Source of the DNA: a phage
DNA: 64,000 nt
Strand: one strand, 5' to 3'
Assembly (NCBI GenBank): GCA_024449565.1
Contig: GCA_024449565.1_4810.1
This document shows positions 3,624-53,424 of this stretch, piece by piece. The first letter of the stretch is position 1, and each line of letters starts with the position of its first letter. A program made the position numbers and the translations under genes. Under the pieces are notes generated by a model. That model ran no database searches. It had not been told where the DNA came from and saw nothing but the letters and a program-made list of their open reading frames with translations.

Positions 3624-3728
3624 TGTTAACGCCACCTGACAGTGAAAGGGAATCAATCTATATTATAAATATTCATGTGTTTGTAAGCAAATGATATGTA
3701 TGGTGATCATAAATAGTTCATAAAATAT

Positions 3729-3757
3729 TTTGCTTTTGTATCATTTTGAGTTATATT
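3729..3757 (+). promoter_or_regulatory. sigma70-like promoter TTTGCT-17-TATATT
   Basis: Hexamers with 17-bp spacer about 30 nt upstream of the 3786 ATG. Confidence 0.4.
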
Positions 3758-3785
3758 TTAGTTAACCAAACGAAAGGAGATTGAA

Positions 3786-4202
3786 ATGAGCACAACAATT
3801 GTATTTGTCGTCCTACACAACGGCGAAGTCGTTAACGTATGCGAATATGAAGAACTGGCAAAGGCCACTGCTGCGAGATACGAAGGTGCTACTATTGACC
3901 CGTGGATTTTAGATGCGCGCAGCGTCTTGCAGGCGACTTTAGATGAGTGGTTGTTGGGTCGCAAGGTCTATCCAGTAGACAACATCGACTCAATTCAAGG
4001 CGAAACAGTATACTTTGAAGATGAATGCGTTCGCGGCATCGGCAAATTTATGGGATTGTGCCCATCTTCATCCAAAAATAAATTCTATCGTATTCAAGTT
4101 GAAGAAAACGATATGTTTGATAAAGTCACGCGCTCGATTGTTCCTGGCGGCGGAACTCCAATCTTTATGGCAGAATCAGACATCAAGGGGATTATCAAAT
4201 GA
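3786..4202 (+). CDS. hypothetical protein
   Basis: AAAGGAG SD 7 nt upstream of ATG; plus-strand gene inserted between minus-strand terL and portal. Confidence 0.5.
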   Translation: MSTTIVFVVLHNGEVVNVCEYEELAKATAARYEGATIDPWILDARSVLQATLDEWLLGRKVYPVDNIDSIQGETVYFEDECVRGIGKFMGLCPSSSKNKFYRIQVEENDMFDKVTRSIVPGGGTPIFMAESDIKGIIK

Positions 4203-4438
4203 GAACTTTAACCGAACTCGATGTTTTGAAAGACGTTGCAGCGGCGCTGGGCGTTGAAGTCTCTGAAAAGTCGACACTGGGTGCTCTGCGTCGTGATTTA
4301 CTCGAAGCCGTCGACCGCAACGATTTTGATCGTAAGTGTTTGCAAAAGAAGATTCGACAGGCAGTAAGGGCGGGTAAGCGATTCCGTGCCAGGTCGTTTG
4401 CCGCAAGAAAGCTCGACCTTCAGCACGGAATGCTTTAA
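4199..4438 (+). CDS. hypothetical protein
   Basis: ATGA overlap with upstream gene; basic C-terminus; a 9-bp stem (4381-4389 / 4423-4431) lies in its 3' end. Confidence 0.4.
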   Translation: MRTLTELDVLKDVAAALGVEVSEKSTLGALRRDLLEAVDRNDFDRKCLQKKIRQAVRAGKRFRARSFAARKLDLQHGML

Positions 4439-4441
4439 TTG

Positions 4442-5902
4442 TTAAAGGTTAGAGAAGAAGCCGGATGCTGCAACAATTGGTTTCATCAACGCCATGATTG
4501 CTGCGTCCGCTTTGTTAGGCGATTTGACTCCACGCTTTGCCATATCCTTTTTCGATTCAACTTTAAACTTACCAAGCACAGACGTGTCTTTGCGCGGCGC
4601 TGACATCTCAAAAAGAAATGTCTCAATTTCTTCCGCAGACCAAGCAGGAATCCCAAGTTCTGGAATGCCGTCTGTGTCGATGGAAATCAGCTCATCAGTC
4701 GGGTATACGGCCTGCCCTGTTGCATACTCATATGTCTTCCTGAATCGTTCGGCAATCTCAGTCCATTTTTGCGCTTTTATGTTTGCGAAATGGTCTTTAT
4801 TGAGTATTTCAACGTGTGGTAACTCAAGGAAGACGTCATCAGGATCATCAACAGCACCTTGCGCGTTGAACGCATTAAATTCGATTCTTGGGAATGTTGG
4901 ATTTTCATGGATTGCATACTCATTAAGCTCATCAAATTTTGAACCAGCAAATGCACCAACACCGATGGCGTCATAGGTAATTGATGCGCCGAATGTTAAT
5001 GCATCTTTCCAAACTCCGCTTGCGGACTTAAGCAATTCATCTTCCAGACCTTCCCATGTCTTGATGCCGCGCAATACGTTGCCCGTGACAAATGCTGTGG
5101 CGTTTAAGTCGTCGCCGTCGTCCGCCACGTCGAAGCCTATACGGTTAGACCCTGACAAGCTCCATCCCAGCGTAGGGTGTTTGTGGAGGTTTAGCGCGGC
5201 TTTGACGAATGCACGGTTGATTACAGATTTGTCGCCGCCAGTCTTCGGAACGCCGCCATAAACGTGCTCTGCCTTTTTTGGGTCGCGCTCGTACATGCCT
5301 GCGATAACGTCCAGCATTGTTTGCGACAAGAATGGATTATCTTGCCAGTTTATCTTTTTAACAATGGCATTCTTCGGCGGTCGCATAACAAAGTTCTGGT
5401 AGACAAAATCGGCCTCTTCATCAGGGTTAAAGATGATCCATATTTCTGACCCTTCTTTACGGATTGTTGGCTCAATAATGTCCCACTGTTCTTCAGTAAG
5501 CGCGTGCGCTTCTTCCAGCCAAAGTACGTCAACACCTTCCGTTGATTTGATTTCATCAACATTACGTGCGATACCATAAAATAGAAATTCAGATTTAGTT
5601 CTTTTATGTTCGATAGAGTTCTTTAATAAATTGAACTCATCTTTGAAATCAGAAATTTCTATTTTGTCTTTTAATAGAGTATATACAGATTCAGAAATCT
5701 TGTTCTGGAATTGTCGAACGCAAAGGAATTTTAATTTGAAGTTTGCCGCCAAATAAATAGCAAAACCAGCGGCATCATGCGATTTGGAAGATGCACGACC
5801 GCCGTATATTACTTTGTATCGCGCTTTCGTCTTCCAGACTTCTTTTAAAGCAGGATTCAACTGGTACATGACTTTCCAATTATGTGTTAGTATTTTATTC
5901 AT
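4442..5902 (-). CDS. terL: terminase large subunit
   Basis: Walker A GGRASSKS near N-terminus, ATPase plus nuclease two-domain length (486 aa), position upstream of portal. Confidence 0.9.
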   Translation of the reverse strand: MNKILTHNWKVMYQLNPALKEVWKTKARYKVIYGGRASSKSHDAAGFAIYLAANFKLKFLCVRQFQNKISESVYTLLKDKIEISDFKDEFNLLKNSIEHKRTKSEFLFYGIARNVDEIKSTEGVDVLWLEEAHALTEEQWDIIEPTIRKEGSEIWIIFNPDEEADFVYQNFVMRPPKNAIVKKINWQDNPFLSQTMLDVIAGMYERDPKKAEHVYGGVPKTGGDKSVINRAFVKAALNLHKHPTLGWSLSGSNRIGFDVADDGDDLNATAFVTGNVLRGIKTWEGLEDELLKSASGVWKDALTFGASITYDAIGVGAFAGSKFDELNEYAIHENPTFPRIEFNAFNAQGAVDDPDDVFLELPHVEILNKDHFANIKAQKWTEIAERFRKTYEYATGQAVYPTDELISIDTDGIPELGIPAWSAEEIETFLFEMSAPRKDTSVLGKFKVESKKDMAKRGVKSPNKADAAIMALMKPIVAASGFFSNL

Positions 5903-5910
5903 ATTATAGT

Positions 5911-5939
5911 TTGCTTGTACAATCTATATCAAGTAAAAT
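5911..5939 (+). promoter_or_regulatory. sigma70-like promoter TTGCTT-17-TAAAAT
   Basis: Hexamers with 17-bp spacer; about 40 nt upstream of an intrinsic terminator. Confidence 0.35.
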
Positions 5940-5978
5940 TATGATTCCAGCTTAGTAGTGGATAAAGGGTGATCTTTC

Positions 5979-6006
5979 GGCCAGATTCTTTCTGGCCATT
6001 TTTTTT
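5979..6006 (+). terminator. rho-independent terminator
   Basis: GGCCAG-ATTCTTT-CTGGCC hairpin followed by an 8-T run. Confidence 0.55.
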
Positions 6007-6026
6007 GATTAAAATTCACAAAAAGT

Positions 6027-6054
6027 TTGCCTTTCTGAAATTCTGCATTATAAT
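6027..6054 (+). promoter_or_regulatory. sigma70-like promoter TTGCCT-16-TATAAT
   Basis: Near-consensus hexamers about 27 nt upstream of the 6081 ATG. Confidence 0.5.
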
Positions 6055-6080
6055 CATATTAACTCAAAACCGGAGGTAAT

Positions 6081-6296
6081 ATGAAACTCATCGACCGCGC
6101 CATCAAAGCCATTGATAATCACTCCACAGCGATTGCTTTCGTAATGGGATTTTGTTTCACTGCTGCGTTTGGCGACGTTCACACATTCAAGTCTGTCATC
6201 TTGTGTTGGTCCATTTGGTCACTTATTTCTCTGGTTTTGATTCTTCCGATGACGTGGCTTGTTCTTACTTGTCTTGAATCTCAAGGTGAAGACTGA
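6081..6296 (+). CDS. small membrane protein, two predicted TM helices (holin-like topology)
   Basis: GGAGGT SD; two hydrophobic segments in 71 aa. Confidence 0.45.
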   Translation: MKLIDRAIKAIDNHSTAIAFVMGFCFTAAFGDVHTFKSVILCWSIWSLISLVLILPMTWLVLTCLESQGED

Positions 6297-6517
6297 TGAG
6301 ACTATCAATCAAAGAGCGGGCAAAGCGGCCCAAAAGGAGTGAGCCAAAGGCCAAATACACATGCGTTGGCGGACCGTTCGACGGTCAAGTGGTGTGGCTT
6401 TCAAAATCTAATCCATCGACGGTTGAGTTCAGCCTTCGTGGAATGCGCGGCAGATACCTGCTAAATAGAGAAACAAGTGGCAGCACATTTGTGGAGTGGA
6501 AAGAAAATGGCAAATGA
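6296..6517 (+). CDS. hypothetical protein
   Basis: Start overlaps upstream stop; AGGTGAAG SD. Confidence 0.4.
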   Translation: MRLSIKERAKRPKRSEPKAKYTCVGGPFDGQVVWLSKSNPSTVEFSLRGMRGRYLLNRETSGSTFVEWKENGK

Positions 6518-6740
6518 ATTAACCTTAACGGTGCCAAAAGAAGTGCTAGACAAGGCATATGCAGATTCTGTAAAAGAATTAGCCGTAGTGCTTGGAATTG
6601 AAAGTGAATTCAACGTTCAGCTTCAATTCCTAAAAGATACTCTTCAAATCAAAGAGAATAGAGAGGCTGGCGGCGGTGCGCCTTTAGCTTTGGCAATAAT
6701 CTATGCGGGATTAATTTTGAAGTCTGGAGATGAACTGTGA
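6507..6740 (+). CDS. hypothetical protein
   Basis: Start trimmed to ATG MANELTL with GGAGTGGA SD. Confidence 0.4.
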   Translation: MANELTLTVPKEVLDKAYADSVKELAVVLGIESEFNVQLQFLKDTLQIKENREAGGGAPLALAIIYAGLILKSGDEL

Positions 6741-6936
6741 ATCGTTGGTGCAGTTGGAAGTTGAAACGTCTTGCCTGGGCCAATGCCGCCAATTCTGCTG
6801 GTGTCATCACCGCTGGCGTTGGGTCGGTATGGGATGGCGAAGGCCGTTGGGACTCGCTGTGTGGCACGCGCCTATTCTTTCGCGTAAAATAATTATCGCC
6901 CTTCCCGAAATGGGAAGGGAATTTAAAGAGGTTATC

Positions 6937-7278
6937 ATGAACAACACTTTGTCACAACTGTTAATCTGGACTATCGCTGCTATCATCGGCACCGTTATTA
7001 TGATGTCAAGTGCAAAGGCTGAAACGGATATTTGCGGCAGACTTATTTCTGAAAACGGCGAAATTTATTATGGCAACTCAAAAGGTGATTATATATCGCC
7101 TGAAGTTTGCGCTCAGAAGAAAGCAGAAATGCAAAAGCAGTATCATGAAGATCAATCTATATCTCAAGCCGCGCTGATTGAATTAAGTATATCAGCCATC
7201 ATCTTTCTAATCGTTTTTATGCTCATTATTAAACCAAATAATGGCAGCCACCGTCATATTCCTCTCAAAAGAAATTAA
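6937..7278 (+). CDS. small membrane or secreted protein
   Basis: Start trimmed to ATG MNNTLSQ with AAAGAGG SD; N-terminal hydrophobic signal-like segment and C-terminal TM segment. Confidence 0.45.
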   Translation: MNNTLSQLLIWTIAAIIGTVIMMSSAKAETDICGRLISENGEIYYGNSKGDYISPEVCAQKKAEMQKQYHEDQSISQAALIELSISAIIFLIVFMLIIKPNNGSHRHIPLKRN

Positions 7279-7316: not shown

Positions 7317-9227
7317 ATGCCAAGGCTAATATTCAAAAACAACTTTGAGGTCGCGCTCGCTCAGCCAGCGACGACTTCAGACACCACAATCACAATCCGC
7401 TCAGGGTCGGGCTTTCCGACCTTGGGCGCAAACGAGCGTGTAGTGGCGACAGTCGTCGACGCTGCAACAGGCCTCCAATTCGAAATCATCACTGTAACAG
7501 CCGTGGTTGGAAACGTGCTAACCGTGCAGCGTGCACAGGAAGGGACTGCAGCGCGTGCATGGAGCGTCGGAGATTTTTTATCCATAAGGGTGACGGCTGC
7601 CATATTGACAAGCACAGTAAGGAATTTTGGAGAATTACCTTCTGGAATAAACTTAAATGCCCTTACTGGTTCTTGGTTCGGTCAATACCAGCAGTCTTCT
7701 AATTCTGCGGCTTCGCAAGTTCTGAATTATCCTGTAGCCCAATCAGGCAGCCTTGAGGTTATTTGCTCGGCAAACAACTCTGGTGACCAATCTTGCACGC
7801 AAATATACAGCACGAATCCTGACAACAAGCAGTACAAAAGAACTTATAATTCAGAAACAAGCACATGGTCTACTTGGGCTAAAATATATAACTCTTCCGA
7901 CGTGATTCCAGTCTCCAATGGAGGGACTGGTGTTTCAGACATAGGATCAATAAGAAGAGCAATATTGGTGCAAGGACTTGAATGTAATGATCAAACTGGT
8001 CCCCAATCATACAACAGCTATCGTTCACCAAATTCAGCATACACATGGAAAATAGATAACTCAGGACTTGTGCAAGTCATAAAGACTTCTGATGGTTCTG
8101 CAGTGCCAATACCTATTGAATCAGGAGGGACTGGTGGAATAACTGCTTATAGTGCAAGGGTTAATCTCTCTTTGGATAGGCTGCGCCAAGAAGGTGCTTA
8201 TACAGAACTGAATTCTGCGAACGGAAGATATAGATTTCTTGTAAATGATTCAGGAGATTGGGGAGGTTTTGATGGTTCCACAAACGGCTGGAAGCCATTG
8301 GCAATAGCGCAGGGAGGGACTGGATCAACCACGTTGGAAGGAGCAAGAACGAATCTGAAAATTGACAGGTTCTTGCAAGGTGATATTGATACAAAAATAT
8401 CAACGCCTGATTCGCAATACAACTTTTTCATCACTGACGCTGATTGGGGTCTTTATGATGTAACATCACTAAATAGAGTTGCACTCCCAATTGTCAGCGG
8501 CGGCACAGGCGGAGTAACTGCTGTTGAATCTTGCAAGTCTCTCGCAGCGATGCATTATAAATACCCAGCGCAAACATCATTTGGGCAGCAATACATGGAG
8601 ACTGGGGTTGGATATTACAGCACTGATCAGTCACCAAGTCCAGGTGGAAGCGGTTCTCCATATAACTATGCCGAGATACTTACTATATCTGAATTTGGTA
8701 ATGGAGCTAACTATTCTCAAATCGCATTTTCAGTGTTGACGGAACAACCGCCGCGATACAGACAAAGGTTTGACTCTAATCCAAGGTTGACTAATTGGCG
8801 AGATTTCCTTATTCGCGATTTGAATACCAGCGTAGACAGCAACGGATTCATAAAAATTGCTTCACCAATAGTCAAAATAAGATTTGATGGATCATTTGAG
8901 CTGAACAGCGAGTCAGAAGGCTGCACAGTGTCAAGAGAAGGAAAGGGGCACTATTTGATAAGCGGTTGCCTCGGATTAAATAGTGATGCCGCCTGGGGAG
9001 GCGTTAACGGCGGCTTTGAAATTCCAGTTGATGTGAATAAACAGCCTAGAATTTGGCTTGACTATAAAGTGAATGAAGATGGATCAGTTGACGTATTCAC
9101 ATATCACAGGGTGCACAATGATGCCCCAGTTTTTGCAAGGAATAACCTTGAAGGTTATGCAGACGGAGACCCAATAGACATACCAAAGGATGCATTTATC
9201 TCTGTGAGGGTGCAAATGCCAAAATAA
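7317..9227 (+). CDS. tail fiber protein (GGTG-repeat type)
   Basis: Four repeats of the (S/E/A/V)-GGTG-x-(S/T) motif (SNGGTGVSD, ESGGTGGIT, AQGGTGSTT, VSGGTGGVT) typical of phage tail fibers; GAGGA SD. Confidence 0.7.
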   Translation: MPRLIFKNNFEVALAQPATTSDTTITIRSGSGFPTLGANERVVATVVDAATGLQFEIITVTAVVGNVLTVQRAQEGTAARAWSVGDFLSIRVTAAILTSTVRNFGELPSGINLNALTGSWFGQYQQSSNSAASQVLNYPVAQSGSLEVICSANNSGDQSCTQIYSTNPDNKQYKRTYNSETSTWSTWAKIYNSSDVIPVSNGGTGVSDIGSIRRAILVQGLECNDQTGPQSYNSYRSPNSAYTWKIDNSGLVQVIKTSDGSAVPIPIESGGTGGITAYSARVNLSLDRLRQEGAYTELNSANGRYRFLVNDSGDWGGFDGSTNGWKPLAIAQGGTGSTTLEGARTNLKIDRFLQGDIDTKISTPDSQYNFFITDADWGLYDVTSLNRVALPIVSGGTGGVTAVESCKSLAAMHYKYPAQTSFGQQYMETGVGYYSTDQSPSPGGSGSPYNYAEILTISEFGNGANYSQIAFSVLTEQPPRYRQRFDSNPRLTNWRDFLIRDLNTSVDSNGFIKIASPIVKIRFDGSFELNSESEGCTVSREGKGHYLISGCLGLNSDAAWGGVNGGFEIPVDVNKQPRIWLDYKVNEDGSVDVFTYHRVHNDAPVFARNNLEGYADGDPIDIPKDAFISVRVQMPK

Positions 9228-19440: not shown

Positions 19441-19479
19441 TCTCCTTTGCTTGATGAACTAAGTATAATACAGGCAAAT

Positions 19480-19508
19480 AAAAAGGCAAGCATTTAGCTC
19501 ACCTTTTT
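19480..19508 (-). terminator. terminator-promoter unit (minus strand)
   Basis: Hairpin AGGUGAGC-UAAAU-GCUUGCCU (two G-U pairs) plus T-run on minus strand; TTGCCT then 16 nt then TATACT follows; 30-bp identical copy at 20733. Confidence 0.5.
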
Positions 19509-20681: not shown

Positions 20682-20731
20682 AATCACCTCACTTGTTCGT
20701 CTTGATGAAAAGAGTATAATTATTGATAAAA

Positions 20732-20760
20732 GAAAAGGCAAGCATTTAGCTCACCTTTTT
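20732..20760 (-). terminator. terminator-promoter unit (minus strand), copy 2
   Basis: Same hairpin as at 19480; on minus strand TTGCCT then 17 nt then TATACT follows. Confidence 0.5.
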
Positions 20761-26933: not shown

Positions 26934-26991
26934 GAATCACCTCTGCTTCAGTTCATAAAATGATTATAGTTGCTATGAAAATAAAAGCAAA

Positions 26992-53367: not shown

Positions 53368-53414
53368 AGACTCCTTATATCTGATCAACAAATTATAATC
53401 TATAAGGAGTCTAT
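53366..53414 (-). promoter_or_regulatory. 14-bp perfect inverted repeat sequestering the RBS and start codon
   Basis: ATAGACTCCTTATA (53366-53379) and TATAAGGAGTCTAT (53401-53414), 21-nt loop; the 3' arm on the mRNA contains the AAGGAG SD and the first two bases of the ATG. Confidence 0.5.
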
Positions 53415-53424
53415 AAGCAATATT

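What the first reader, a model, noticed from the sequence alone, without database searches (positions are those of the whole stretch)
5911..6006. Promoter plus terminator bracketing about 60 nt: candidate small RNA or attenuator
A plus-strand promoter (TTGCTT-17-TAAAAT) is followed about 40 nt later by a strong intrinsic terminator, with no ORF between. A second promoter (6027-6054) then drives the downstream operon. The short transcript lies opposite the terL start, so it could be an sRNA or an antisense or attenuating element.
Basis: inference. Interest (0 to 1): 0.4.

Follow-up and report, generated by a model that had tools for sequence, protein, structure and literature searches.

The report
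Orphaned leader terminator beside terL promoter
A promoter followed about 40 bases later by a strong terminator, with no gene between them, is really present in this E. coli phage; relatives indicate it is the leader and attenuator of a small late transcription unit whose gene this phage has lost, which is a fairly ordinary kind of phage regulatory element.

Summary
The window is a Wifcevirus (E. coli myovirus, Lindbergviridae). TTGCTT-17-TAAAAT (5911-5939, "P1") lies 39 nt upstream of a GC hairpin plus U8 (5979-6006), no ORF lies between them, and a second promoter follows (6027-6054, "P2").

P1 is weak against the generic sigma-70 consensus. It does belong to a phage-specific promoter class, TTGCYT-N16-18-TANNNT, with 21 sites against 4.8 expected. 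Its hexamers and geometry are conserved in Kylevirus-type relatives (terL about 75-79% identical), although the spacer has diverged completely.

In those relatives, and in 7 of 21 Wifcevirus genomes, a ribosome-binding site and gene start immediately after the U-run with no promoter in between. One such gene product, vB_Eco4M-7_32, has been detected by published mass spectrometry. Transcription must therefore pass the hairpin.

The element is best read as a 5'-leader intrinsic terminator (attenuator) that has lost its gene in this genome. It should yield a roughly 61-nt leader RNA, with any read-through joining the P2 operon.

It is not antisense to terL, because the two transcripts diverge. 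A trans-acting sRNA role is neither supported nor excluded. No transcript mapping exists for this genus. It is a new member of a known kind and of modest interest.

The parts
5903..5932 (-). terL promoter (P_terL): -35 TTGATA at 5932..5927, 18-nt spacer, -10 TATAAT at 5908..5903. Predicted TSS about 5896.
   Evidence: It matches 11 of 12 consensus positions and ranks 4th of all sites in the window by PWM. The hexamers are invariant in 21 Wifcevirus genomes and are kept as TTGAAA/TTGATT/TTGATC-18-TATAAT in Kyle, PA1, L009 and L105.
5867..5877 (-). Probable true terL start: SD GGAAAG at 5877..5872 and ATG at 5869..5867. The upstream in-frame ATG at 5902 abuts the -10 hexamer and would lie outside the transcript.
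   Evidence: Sequence. WFH, WFC, Mansfield, EC150 and ECO71P1 annotate this start. That ATG 5902 lies upstream of the TSS is inference.
5911..5939 (+). Promoter P1: -35 TTGCTT (5911-5916), 17-nt spacer, -10 TAAAAT (5934-5939). It overlaps P_terL on the opposite strand. Predicted TSS about 5946.
   Evidence: It is a member of the enriched TTGCYT-N16-18-TANNNT class (21 sites against 4.8 expected). Both hexamers are invariant in 21 genomes while spacer positions 5917-5925 are hypervariable. The same geometry, ATTATA-NN-TTGNNN-17-TANNNT, is found in four Kylevirus-type genomes. It is weak by the generic PWM (rank 83).
5946..6006 (+). Predicted 61-nt leader RNA: hairpin 1 (5946-5962), hairpin 2 (5964-5977), terminator hairpin and U-tract.
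   Evidence: Minimum free energy -18.1 kcal/mol, z = -2.4. Nucleotide diversity across 5925-5974 is 0.008-0.015, against 0.08-0.13 in the adjacent non-coding stretches. All 18 core stem pairs are invariant, and all variation in the transcribed region falls in loops, linkers or the closing base. The transcript ends are predicted, not mapped.
5979..6006 (+). Intrinsic terminator T1: stem GGCCAGA/TCTGGCC (5979-5985 / 5991-5997), loop TTCTT, A at 5998, U8 at 5999-6006.
   Evidence: Found (-13.6 kcal/mol). It is the only strong terminator in the window with no same-strand gene upstream. Kylevirus-type genomes have a different hairpin sequence, GGTGGACAG..CTGCTCCACC plus U7, at the same place.
6007..6011 (+). 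Junction where 7 of 21 Wifcevirus genomes carry an extra unit: RBS AGGAG, a 76-codon gene and a small hairpin. That unit is absent from this window.
   Evidence: Alignment. The gene shows 17-28 synonymous against 4-6 non-synonymous codon differences between the two subgroups. Its product was detected by mass spectrometry as vB_Eco4M-7_32 (PMC7048862).
6027..6083 (+). Promoter P2 (TTGCCT-16-TATAAT, 6027-6054), RBS GGAGG (6072-6076) and ATG 6081 of the first gene of the downstream + operon (small genes, then the tail fibre at 7317..9227).
   Evidence: It is conserved in all 21 genomes. A homologous TTGCCTT...TAATAATCA promoter follows a terminator in Kyle.

Best explanation
The interval is the promoter-plus-leader-terminator module of the transcription unit that diverges from terL.

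**Proposed mechanism**
1. P1 and the terL promoter occupy the same roughly 37 bp on opposite strands, so one RNA polymerase probably excludes the other (inferred).
2. Host sigma-70 RNA polymerase starting at P1 (about 5946) transcribes a structured leader of about 60 nt and meets an intrinsic terminator (hairpin 5979-5997 plus U8).
3. Most transcripts are expected to end there, giving a leader RNA of about 61 nt. A fraction reads through. That fraction may be fixed, or it may be raised by an unidentified phage or host factor late in infection.

**What relatives show**
- In Kylevirus-type phages, read-through transcripts encode a 301-aa protein and an 85-aa protein.
- In some Wifcevirus genomes they encode a 76-aa protein that has been found in phage preparations.
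- In this genome that coding unit has been lost, so the module sits directly upstream of the independent promoter P2 and read-through only adds to P2 transcription.

**Shown**
- The motifs are present and conserved.
- Genes abut the U-run in relatives.
- One such gene is expressed as protein.

**Inferred**
- The TSS and the 3' end.
- The termination efficiency.
- Any regulation of read-through.
- The direction of the gain or loss event.
For: 1. The terminator is real in form and far beyond chance.
2. P1 belongs to a promoter class enriched more than 4-fold in this phage.
3. In five lineages (window and Eco4M-7, Kyle, PA1, L009/L105) the spacing ATTATA-NN-TTGNNN-17-TANNNT is identical although the spacers share almost no sequence. 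A 60-77 nt leader ends in a hairpin of -13.6 to -15.7 kcal/mol plus U7-8.
4. The hairpin sequence differs completely between Wifcevirus (GGCCAGA/TCTGGCC) and Kylevirus-type phages (GGTGGACAG/CTGCTCCACC), but its position and form are kept.
5. In Kyle, PA1, L009 and L105 the U-run is followed directly by GAGAGG and the ATG of a long ORF. In 7 Wifcevirus genomes AGGAG starts 4 nt after the U-run. No promoter-like site lies between terminator and gene in Mansfield.
6. The 76-codon gene is under purifying selection. Its product vB_Eco4M-7_32 (7.8 kDa) was detected with 55% coverage and score 1002, and ECML-117 PI34_gp30 (7.7 kDa) was also detected (PMC7048862; locus tag; molecular weights). RNA polymerase must therefore traverse the hairpin.
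7. Kyle carries the order P1, T1, gene A, gene B, terminator, TTGCCT promoter, small membrane protein. Gene B is weakly similar to the Wifcevirus 76-aa protein (E = 1e-4), and the TTGCCT promoter is homologous to P2. This suggests the window lineage lost the unit.
8. Positions 5927-5978 are as conserved as coding DNA, while the neighbouring non-coding stretches vary. All variable sites in the RNA lie outside the stems.
9. There is precedent. ONT-cappable-seq found 42 terminators inside 5'UTRs of virulent Pseudomonas phages, mostly giving a dominant short RNA plus a read-through mRNA. One candidate was in Pbunavirus 14-1, which belongs to the same family (PMC10914365).
Against: - No transcript mapping exists for any Wifcevirus or Kylevirus, so the TSS, the 3' end and the read-through are all predicted.
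- P1 is only 3 of 6 in the -35 hexamer and overlaps a much stronger opposing promoter.
- There is no covariation within the genus, because every stem position is invariant.
- No alternative antiterminator pairing or leader peptide is visible.
- No antiterminator is annotated in a relative, so how a well-expressed protein gets past a U7-8 terminator is unexplained.
- Mass spectrometry proves translation of gene 32, not which promoter made its mRNA.
- In this window nothing coding depends on the element, so it may be vestigial.
Confidence: 0.58

Rival explanations
1. Free-standing trans-acting small RNA. P1 and T1 exist to make a 61-nt regulatory RNA that base-pairs with host or phage mRNAs. Read-through into downstream genes is incidental.
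For: The promoter plus terminator with no ORF has the classic sRNA gene form. A 3' hairpin with a U8 tail is typical of Hfq-type sRNAs. The 5' 33 nt are nearly invariant in 21 genomes, including the 14 that lack the downstream gene. Phage 5'UTR-derived short RNAs have been proposed as regulators (PMC10914365).
Against: There is no Rfam match above noise (RyhB 19.6 bits against a gathering score of 55, E = 1.6). There is no complementarity of 11 nt or more anywhere in the window. The best duplex with 349 translation-start regions (-25.3 kcal/mol) is no better than with shuffled RNAs (mean -26.3). The 5' leader sequence is not conserved between Wifcevirus and Kylevirus-type phages, whereas the hairpin position is. 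Host targets could not be screened; one search detects only long similarity.
Confidence: 0.15
2. Insulating terminator. T1 mainly stops + strand transcription that enters from the left, either antisense read-through from the + cassette 3786..4438 across terL or spurious divergent initiation at the terL promoter. This keeps such transcription from running into P2 and the downstream operon. P1 as such is not a functional promoter.
For: The + cassette ends 3 nt from the terL stop with no terminator. No convincing + strand terminator lies between 3700 and 5978. Kyle has the same convergent layout. Terminator-then-promoter units are common in this genome.
Against: It does not explain why genes sit directly behind the terminator without a promoter in five lineages, because those genes would then be cut off from all transcription. 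It does not explain conservation of the TTGNNN-17-TANNNT hexamers inside an otherwise diverged spacer. Untranslated antisense RNA 1.4 kb long would be expected to be ended by Rho (established knowledge, not tested). This role is compatible with the best explanation as a second function.
Confidence: 0.1
3. DNA-level control region for terL. The conserved block 5940-5978 is an UP element or activator/repressor site for the terL promoter. The hairpin plus T-run is retained for another reason or by linkage, and no meaningful + strand RNA is made.
For: The block lies at about -45 to -82 relative to the predicted terL TSS, where activators and UP elements act. It is conserved as strongly as the promoter hexamers.
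Against: The block is unique in the window, with no second copy of TCCAGCTTAGTAGTGGA even at 3 mismatches. It has no strong palindrome. It is not conserved in Kylevirus-type genomes, which keep the same terL promoter. This reading does not account for the perfectly kept hairpin plus U-run or for the genes behind it.
Confidence: 0.1
4. A phage-specific, non-sigma-70 promoter overlapping the hairpin drives the downstream gene, as with the CTGGG-type promoters of Pbunavirus 14-1. Under this reading T1 can be fully efficient and the P1 RNA is an independent product.
For: 14-1 has 11 promoters with a CTGGG core about 5 bp from the TSS that are inactive without phage factors (PMC10914365). The 3' arm of T1 reads TCTGGCC.
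Against: The arm reads CTGGC, not CTGGG. Kylevirus-type hairpins have no such motif at all, yet keep the hairpin and U-run in front of the gene. What is conserved is structure rather than sequence, which points to an RNA hairpin.
Confidence: 0.05

Closest known systems
5'UTR premature-termination units and 5'UTR-derived short RNAs of virulent phages (ONT-cappable-seq, Putzeys et al. 2024, PMC10914365)
   Same: A promoter is followed within less than 250 nt by an intrinsic terminator upstream of a gene. The short RNA and the read-through mRNA share one 5' end. The elements are conserved within a genus. One candidate was reported in Pbunavirus 14-1, in the same family (Lindbergviridae).
   Different: Those cases were mapped experimentally, whereas this one is only predicted. 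In this window the gene behind the terminator is missing and a second promoter follows instead. Positional homology to the 14-1 candidate could not be checked, because no supplement is held.
Phage lambda pR'-tR' module (6S RNA) with Q antitermination
   Same: A constitutive sigma-70 promoter makes a short terminated RNA directly upstream of late or structural genes, which are expressed only by read-through of the terminator (established knowledge).
   Different: No Q-like gene is annotated in a relative. The promoter spacer, where lambda's Q-binding element lies, is the most variable stretch here. Other late operons in the window, such as portal and terL, have no leader terminator. P2 bypasses the terminator.
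Bacterial leader attenuators (riboswitch, T-box, leader-peptide or protein-mediated types)
   Same: An intrinsic terminator sits in the 5' leader between the promoter and the first gene.
   Different: No competing antiterminator helix, leader peptide or known ligand or tRNA-binding fold was found. The leader is only about 60 nt long.
Overlapping divergent (bidirectional) bacterial promoters
   Same: Two sigma-70-type promoters on opposite strands share one DNA segment. The -35 hexamer of each lies within or next to the spacer of the other.
   Different: Here the -10 hexamers are 25 bp apart and the predicted TSSs about 50 bp apart. The -10-overlap type does occur elsewhere in the window, at 3659-3667.

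Membership tests
Intrinsic (Rho-independent) terminator | G+C-rich stem of at least 5 bp with a loop of 3-8 nt | tested here: met
   The stem has 7 pairs (5 G-C) and a 5-nt loop, at about -13.6 kcal/mol. Nine of the 21 genomes have an 8th closing pair, T-A.
Intrinsic (Rho-independent) terminator | U-tract immediately 3' of the stem | tested here: met
   A plus T8 at 5998-6006, and T7-8 in all 21 Wifcevirus and 4 Kylevirus-type genomes.
Intrinsic (Rho-independent) terminator | Releases transcripts in vivo or in vitro | not testable with these tools
   Needs Term-seq, a Northern blot or in vitro transcription.
Sigma-70 promoter (P1) | -35 and -10 hexamers at 16-18 bp spacing | tested here: inconclusive
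   TTGCTT (3/6), 17-nt spacer, TAAAAT (5/6). It is below the tool's threshold and ranks 83rd with about 50 sites expected by chance. It does belong to the phage-specific TTGCYT class, which has 21 sites against 4.8 expected.
Sigma-70 promoter (P1) | Hexamers conserved while the surrounding sequence drifts | tested here: met
   The hexamers are invariant in 21 genomes with a hypervariable spacer. The same geometry occurs in Kyle, PA1, L009 and L105 with unrelated spacers.
Sigma-70 promoter (P1) | Mapped transcription start | not testable with these tools
   No transcriptome was found for Wifcevirus or Kylevirus.
Leader attenuator (terminator inside a 5'UTR) | A gene lies downstream of the terminator with no promoter of its own | tested here: not met
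   Not met in this window, where P2 (6027-6054) precedes the first gene. It is met in relatives: the RBS starts 0-4 nt after the U-run in Kyle, PA1, L009, L105 and 7 Wifcevirus genomes.
Leader attenuator (terminator inside a 5'UTR) | The downstream gene is nevertheless expressed, showing read-through | tested here: met
   Met in relatives only. vB_Eco4M-7_32 and PI34_gp30 were detected by mass spectrometry (PMC7048862; identity checked).
Leader attenuator (terminator inside a 5'UTR) | Alternative antiterminator structure or leader peptide that makes termination conditional | tested here: not met
   Folds show three independent hairpins and no competing helix. No translatable leader ORF is present.
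Trans-acting sRNA | Own promoter and terminator with no ORF | tested here: met
   Met in silico only.
Trans-acting sRNA | Conserved seed with complementarity to target mRNAs | tested here: inconclusive
   No phage target was found. Host targets could not be screened, because one search detects only long similarity.
Trans-acting sRNA | Membership of a described RNA family | tested here: not met
   All Rfam matches fall far below gathering scores, with E of 0.97 or higher.
cis-antisense RNA to terL | The transcript overlaps the terL mRNA on the opposite strand | tested here: not met
   The predicted P1 RNA spans 5946-6006. The terL mRNA is predicted to start at about 5896 and run leftward, with ATG at 5869.
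Lambda Q-type late antitermination module | Q-family antiterminator gene in the genome | tested here: inconclusive
   None appears among the 116 annotated genes of phage kaset, but most are 'hypothetical'. No systematic profile search of all proteins was run.
Lambda Q-type late antitermination module | Conserved factor-binding element between -35 and -10 of the late promoter | tested here: not met
   Spacer positions 5917-5925 are the most variable part of the region.

The most novel reading that the evidence does not exclude
The P1-leader-T1 module could be a conserved late-gene switch of the Wifcevirus and Kylevirus phages. The structured, genus-invariant leader RNA (5946-5978), or a phage protein acting on it, would make RNA polymerase terminator-resistant late in infection, as put RNA or Q do. 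Alternatively, the leader may have been retained after loss of its gene because the 61-nt RNA has acquired a trans-acting role against a host transcript, coupled to terL expression through the shared, mutually exclusive promoter region.
Probability: 0.12. Interest if true: 0.6.

Novelty: new member of a known kind. Interest (0 to 1): 0.3.

Why it matters
If confirmed, this would give the first defined regulatory element for a phage genus whose biology is almost unstudied and which is being developed against E. coli O157 and for phage synthesis. It points to a compact control region in which the terminase promoter and a divergent attenuated promoter share the same DNA.

It also gives a natural comparison for measuring what a leader terminator does, because some genomes carry a gene behind the terminator and others do not.

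For annotation, it corrects the terL start, removes a probably spurious ORF and extends a truncated gene in phage Kyle, and defines the TTGCYT promoter class for this genus.

Tried and rejected
- **Rfam**, permissive E-value scan of 5000-7000: only noise.
- **tRNA/tmRNA scan**: none found.
- **Similarity of 5927-6012 to 5,426 E. coli genomes**: none, so the element is not a host sRNA mimic or a captured host terminator.
- **Second copies in the window**: none for the leader hairpin or the terminator stem.
- **Exact complementarity of the 61-nt RNA to the window**: none of 11 nt or more.
- **Duplex energies against 349 start regions**: no better than with shuffled RNA.
- **Covariation test on 21 genomes**: uninformative, because all stems are invariant.
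- **TATGAT (5940-5945) as the real -10, or as a sigma-70 pause element**: rejected. Five genomes have TGTGAT, and its would-be -35 is not conserved.
- **Mini-ORFs** (ATG ATT CCA GCT TAG at 5941, and the 36-codon GTG frame): rejected. The first lies upstream of the predicted TSS, and the second is frame-broken by T7/T8 variation.
- **Leader terminator upstream of terL in more distant relatives** (terL 64% identical or less, including Pbunavirus-like contigs): absent, so the module is confined to the Wifcevirus and Kylevirus group.
- **PHROG and Pfam searches** of the 76-aa protein and neighbours: no function found.
- **Supplementary table of PMC10914365** listing the 14-1 ncRNA: not held.

Full report
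**Identity and layout**

The window is a Wifcevirus, an E. coli and Shigella myovirus of the Lindbergviridae. It is 93-97% identical to WFH, WFC, ECML-117, Ro157lw, Eco4M-7 and the BASEL phages Bas98-101.

- terL lies on the minus strand, as ORF 4442..5902. Most records start it at the second ATG, 5869.
- To its right, a 178-211 bp non-coding region is followed by a + strand operon. That operon starts at ATG 6081 and contains small genes and then the T-shaped tail fibre at 7317..9227.
- To its left, a two-gene + strand cassette (3786..4438) ends 3 nt from the terL stop.

**Check of the observation**

- P1: TTGCTT at 5911-5916, 17 nt, TAAAAT at 5934-5939.
- Terminator: hairpin GGCCAGA-TTCTT-TCTGGCC at 5979-5997, followed by A and T8.
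- P2: TTGCCT-16-TATAAT at 6027-6054.

*Terminator.* It is solid. The scan tool reports it, and it is annotated in the WFH and WFC records. At a stricter definition the window holds 17 terminators against about 2.9 in simulations, and this one has the longest T-run. It is also the only one with no same-strand gene upstream.

*Promoter P1.* Taken alone it is weak. It matches 3 of 6 in the -35 hexamer, is missed by the generic scan, and ranks 83rd by a sigma-70 PWM with about 50 sites of that score expected by chance. However, TTGCYT-N16-18-TANNNT occurs 21 times in the window against 4.76 +/- 1.99 expected, and no shuffle out of 100 reached 21. The 21 sites include P2, the portal promoter (3690..3662), the + cassette promoter (3730-3759) and several terminator-promoter units. 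TTGCYT is therefore this phage's usual -35 hexamer, and P1 is an ordinary member of the class.

*No ORF.* No credible ORF lies between P1 and T1. The 36-codon GTG frame (5969..6079) runs through the terminator and P2 and is broken by T7/T8 variation.

**A second promoter on the other strand**

The strongest promoter in the region is on the minus strand: TTGATA-18-TATAAT at 5932..5903. It matches 11 of 12 positions and ranks 4th in the window.
- Its -10 hexamer abuts the ATG at 5902, so terL most likely starts at ATG 5869, behind the SD GGAAAG (inference).
- P1 and this promoter interdigitate, each -35 lying within or next to the other's spacer.
- The predicted TSSs, about 5896 leftward and about 5946 rightward, diverge.
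- The short RNA is therefore not antisense to terL.

**Variation within the genus**

I aligned 21 Wifcevirus genomes.
- All four hexamers are invariant, while spacer positions 5917-5925 are hypervariable.
- Nucleotide diversity is 0.008-0.015 across 5925-5974. It is 0.085 in 5900-5924, 0.077 in 5975-5999 and 0.134 in 6000-6024, and 0.04-0.08 in most coding bins.
- Within the predicted RNA, all 18 core stem pairs are invariant. Every change lies in a loop, in a linker, at the closing base or in the U-run length.
- This fits structural constraint, but there is no covariation (score 0).

**Genes directly behind the terminator in relatives**

Seven of the 21 genomes (Mansfield, ECML-117, TH35, TH32, Eco4M-7, Bas100, Bas101) carry an extra 231-nt gene.
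- Its RBS, AGGAG, begins 4 nt after the U-run. No promoter-like site lies in between.
- The gene shows 17-28 synonymous against 4-6 non-synonymous codon differences between the two subgroups.
- In Eco4M-7 this gene is vBEco4M7_32. The published proteome lists vB_Eco4M-7_32 at 7.8 kDa with 3 peptides, 55% coverage and score 1002. It also lists ECML-117 PI34_gp30 at 7.7 kDa (PMC7048862). The computed masses are 7.81 and 7.73 kDa.
- The assignment of PI34_gp30 rests on gene order and mass.

A protein encoded immediately behind the 'terminator' is therefore made, so transcription must cross the hairpin.

**Conservation beyond the genus**

I searched by terL protein in IMG/VR, GenBank and metagenomes.
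- The same module occurs in Pantoea phage Kyle, Pantoea phage PA1 and two metagenomic contigs, L009 and L105 (terL about 75-79% identical).
- The geometry ATTATA-NN-TTGNNN-17-TANNNT is identical, although the spacers are unrelated.
- A 75-77 nt leader ends in a different hairpin, GGTGGACAG...CTGCTCCACC (-14.6 to -15.7 kcal/mol), plus U7. GAGAGG and the ATG of a long ORF follow directly.
- Between Kyle and PA1 the inner stem swaps GA for AG opposite UU, which keeps the pairing.
- More distant relatives (terL 64% identical or less) have ordinary promoters and no leader terminator.
- In Kyle the order is P1, T1, a 301-aa gene (phrog_11600), an 85-aa gene, a terminator, a TTGCCT promoter and a small membrane protein.
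- The 85-aa protein is weakly similar to the Wifcevirus 76-aa protein (E = 1e-4 over 18 residues). The TTGCCT promoter aligns with P2.

The simplest history is that the window's lineage lost the coding unit between T1 and P2. The direction of change is inferred.

**Mechanism**

The best-supported reading is a 5'-leader intrinsic terminator.
1. P1-initiated polymerase makes a leader of about 61 nt.
2. Most transcripts stop at T1.
3. Some read through into whatever lies downstream.

In this genome the downstream sequence is only P2 and its operon, so the module is 'orphaned'. Its main product should be the short leader RNA.

Whether read-through is constitutive or induced is unknown.
- No competing antiterminator helix or leader peptide is visible.
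- No antiterminator is annotated in phage kaset.
- The promoter spacer, where a lambda-type Q-binding element would sit, is the most variable stretch.

T1 is also the first convincing + strand terminator downstream of the 3786..4438 cassette. It may therefore additionally stop antisense read-through across terL. That role is compatible with the main reading.

**The sRNA reading**

The form fits an sRNA gene, and the 5' 33 nt are strongly conserved even in genomes without the downstream gene. Several tests gave no support.
- There is no Rfam family above noise.
- There is no E. coli similarity.
- There is no second copy in the window.
- There is no complementarity of 11 nt or more to the window.
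- No start-region duplex scores better than with shuffled RNA.

Host targets could not be screened. The reading stays open at low probability.

**Comparison with known systems**

The closest described class is the 5'UTR premature-termination unit mapped in virulent Pseudomonas phages.
- There were 42 terminators inside 5'UTRs.
- Of these, 81% give a dominant RNA under 250 nt plus a read-through mRNA.
- There were 29 ncRNA candidates, including one in Pbunavirus 14-1, and they are conserved within genera (PMC10914365).

The lambda pR'-tR' 6S RNA and Q module is the classical functional analogue. Membership fails on the spacer element, and no Q gene has been found.

No transcriptome was found for Wifcevirus or Kylevirus.

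**Verdict**

- The element is a new, predicted member of a known kind. Its twist is that its gene is missing in this genome.
- Interest is modest (0.3).

Noticed in passing
window 5986-5990 (loop of the terminator hairpin); L001 (WFH) and L093 (AV128): WFH and AV128 carry the loop as AATAA, where Ro157lw-type genomes have TTATT. This is an exact inversion of the loop with an unchanged stem. Such a change is expected from template switching or cruciform processing at a DNA palindrome.
   Followed up: partly
window 6007-6011; L002 1811-2052, L091 621-851: A 76-aa gene directly behind the U-run is present in 7 of 21 Wifcevirus genomes and absent from the rest. The junction is the same in all of them, and the pattern does not follow the promoter-spacer types, which suggests recombination. 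The protein has been detected by mass spectrometry in phage preparations (vB_Eco4M-7_32) but has no family assignment.
   Followed up: partly
window 5867-5908: The long terL ORF start (ATG 5902) abuts the -10 hexamer of the terL promoter (5908..5903). The real start is probably ATG 5869, behind GGAAAG. Several GenBank records (Ro157lw, CWP003, Eco4M-7, ECML-117, kaset) use the longer form.
   Followed up: partly
L099 (Pantoea phage Kyle) 6237-6505: The annotated minus-strand ORF KYLE_22 lies over the leader and terminator and is probably spurious. The + strand gene annotated from 6505 most likely starts at 6331, because it has a GAGAGG RBS and its N-terminus is conserved in PA1, L009 and L105.
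   Followed up: partly
window 20758..20713 and 19505..19462 (minus strand): There are two copies of a compact terminator-promoter unit. The hairpin AAAGGTGAGC-TAAAT-GCTTGCCTTT contains, in its 3' arm, the -35 hexamer TTGCCT of the next promoter, whose -10 is TATACT.
   Followed up: partly
whole window (21 sites; for example 3662-3690 on the minus strand, 3730-3759 on the plus strand, 26963-26990 and 53392-53420 on the minus strand): TTGCYT-N16-18-TANNNT is enriched more than 4-fold (21 sites against 4.8 expected). Many sites continue as TTGCTTT or TTGCCTT and have a T before the -10 hexamer. This looks like a genus-specific flavour of host-type promoter.
   Followed up: partly
window 3636-3690: Between the portal gene and the + cassette, a + strand site (CTGACA-17-TATATT) and the minus-strand portal promoter (TTGCTT-17-TATAAT) have overlapping -10 hexamers at 3659-3667. 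This is the symmetric bidirectional promoter arrangement.
   Followed up: no
window 3786-5978: The + strand cassette (3786..4438) converges on terL with a 3-nt gap and no terminator. No convincing + strand terminator follows until 5979, so antisense transcription across the whole terL gene is possible. Kyle has the same layout with a five-gene cassette.
   Followed up: partly
L018 (IMG/VR contig, terL about 61% identical), immediately upstream of terL: A 9-11 bp hairpin (TTGGTCCA...TGGACCAG) sits in the terL 5'UTR just before the start codon. This is a different leader structure, on the terL side, in a more distant relative.
   Followed up: no
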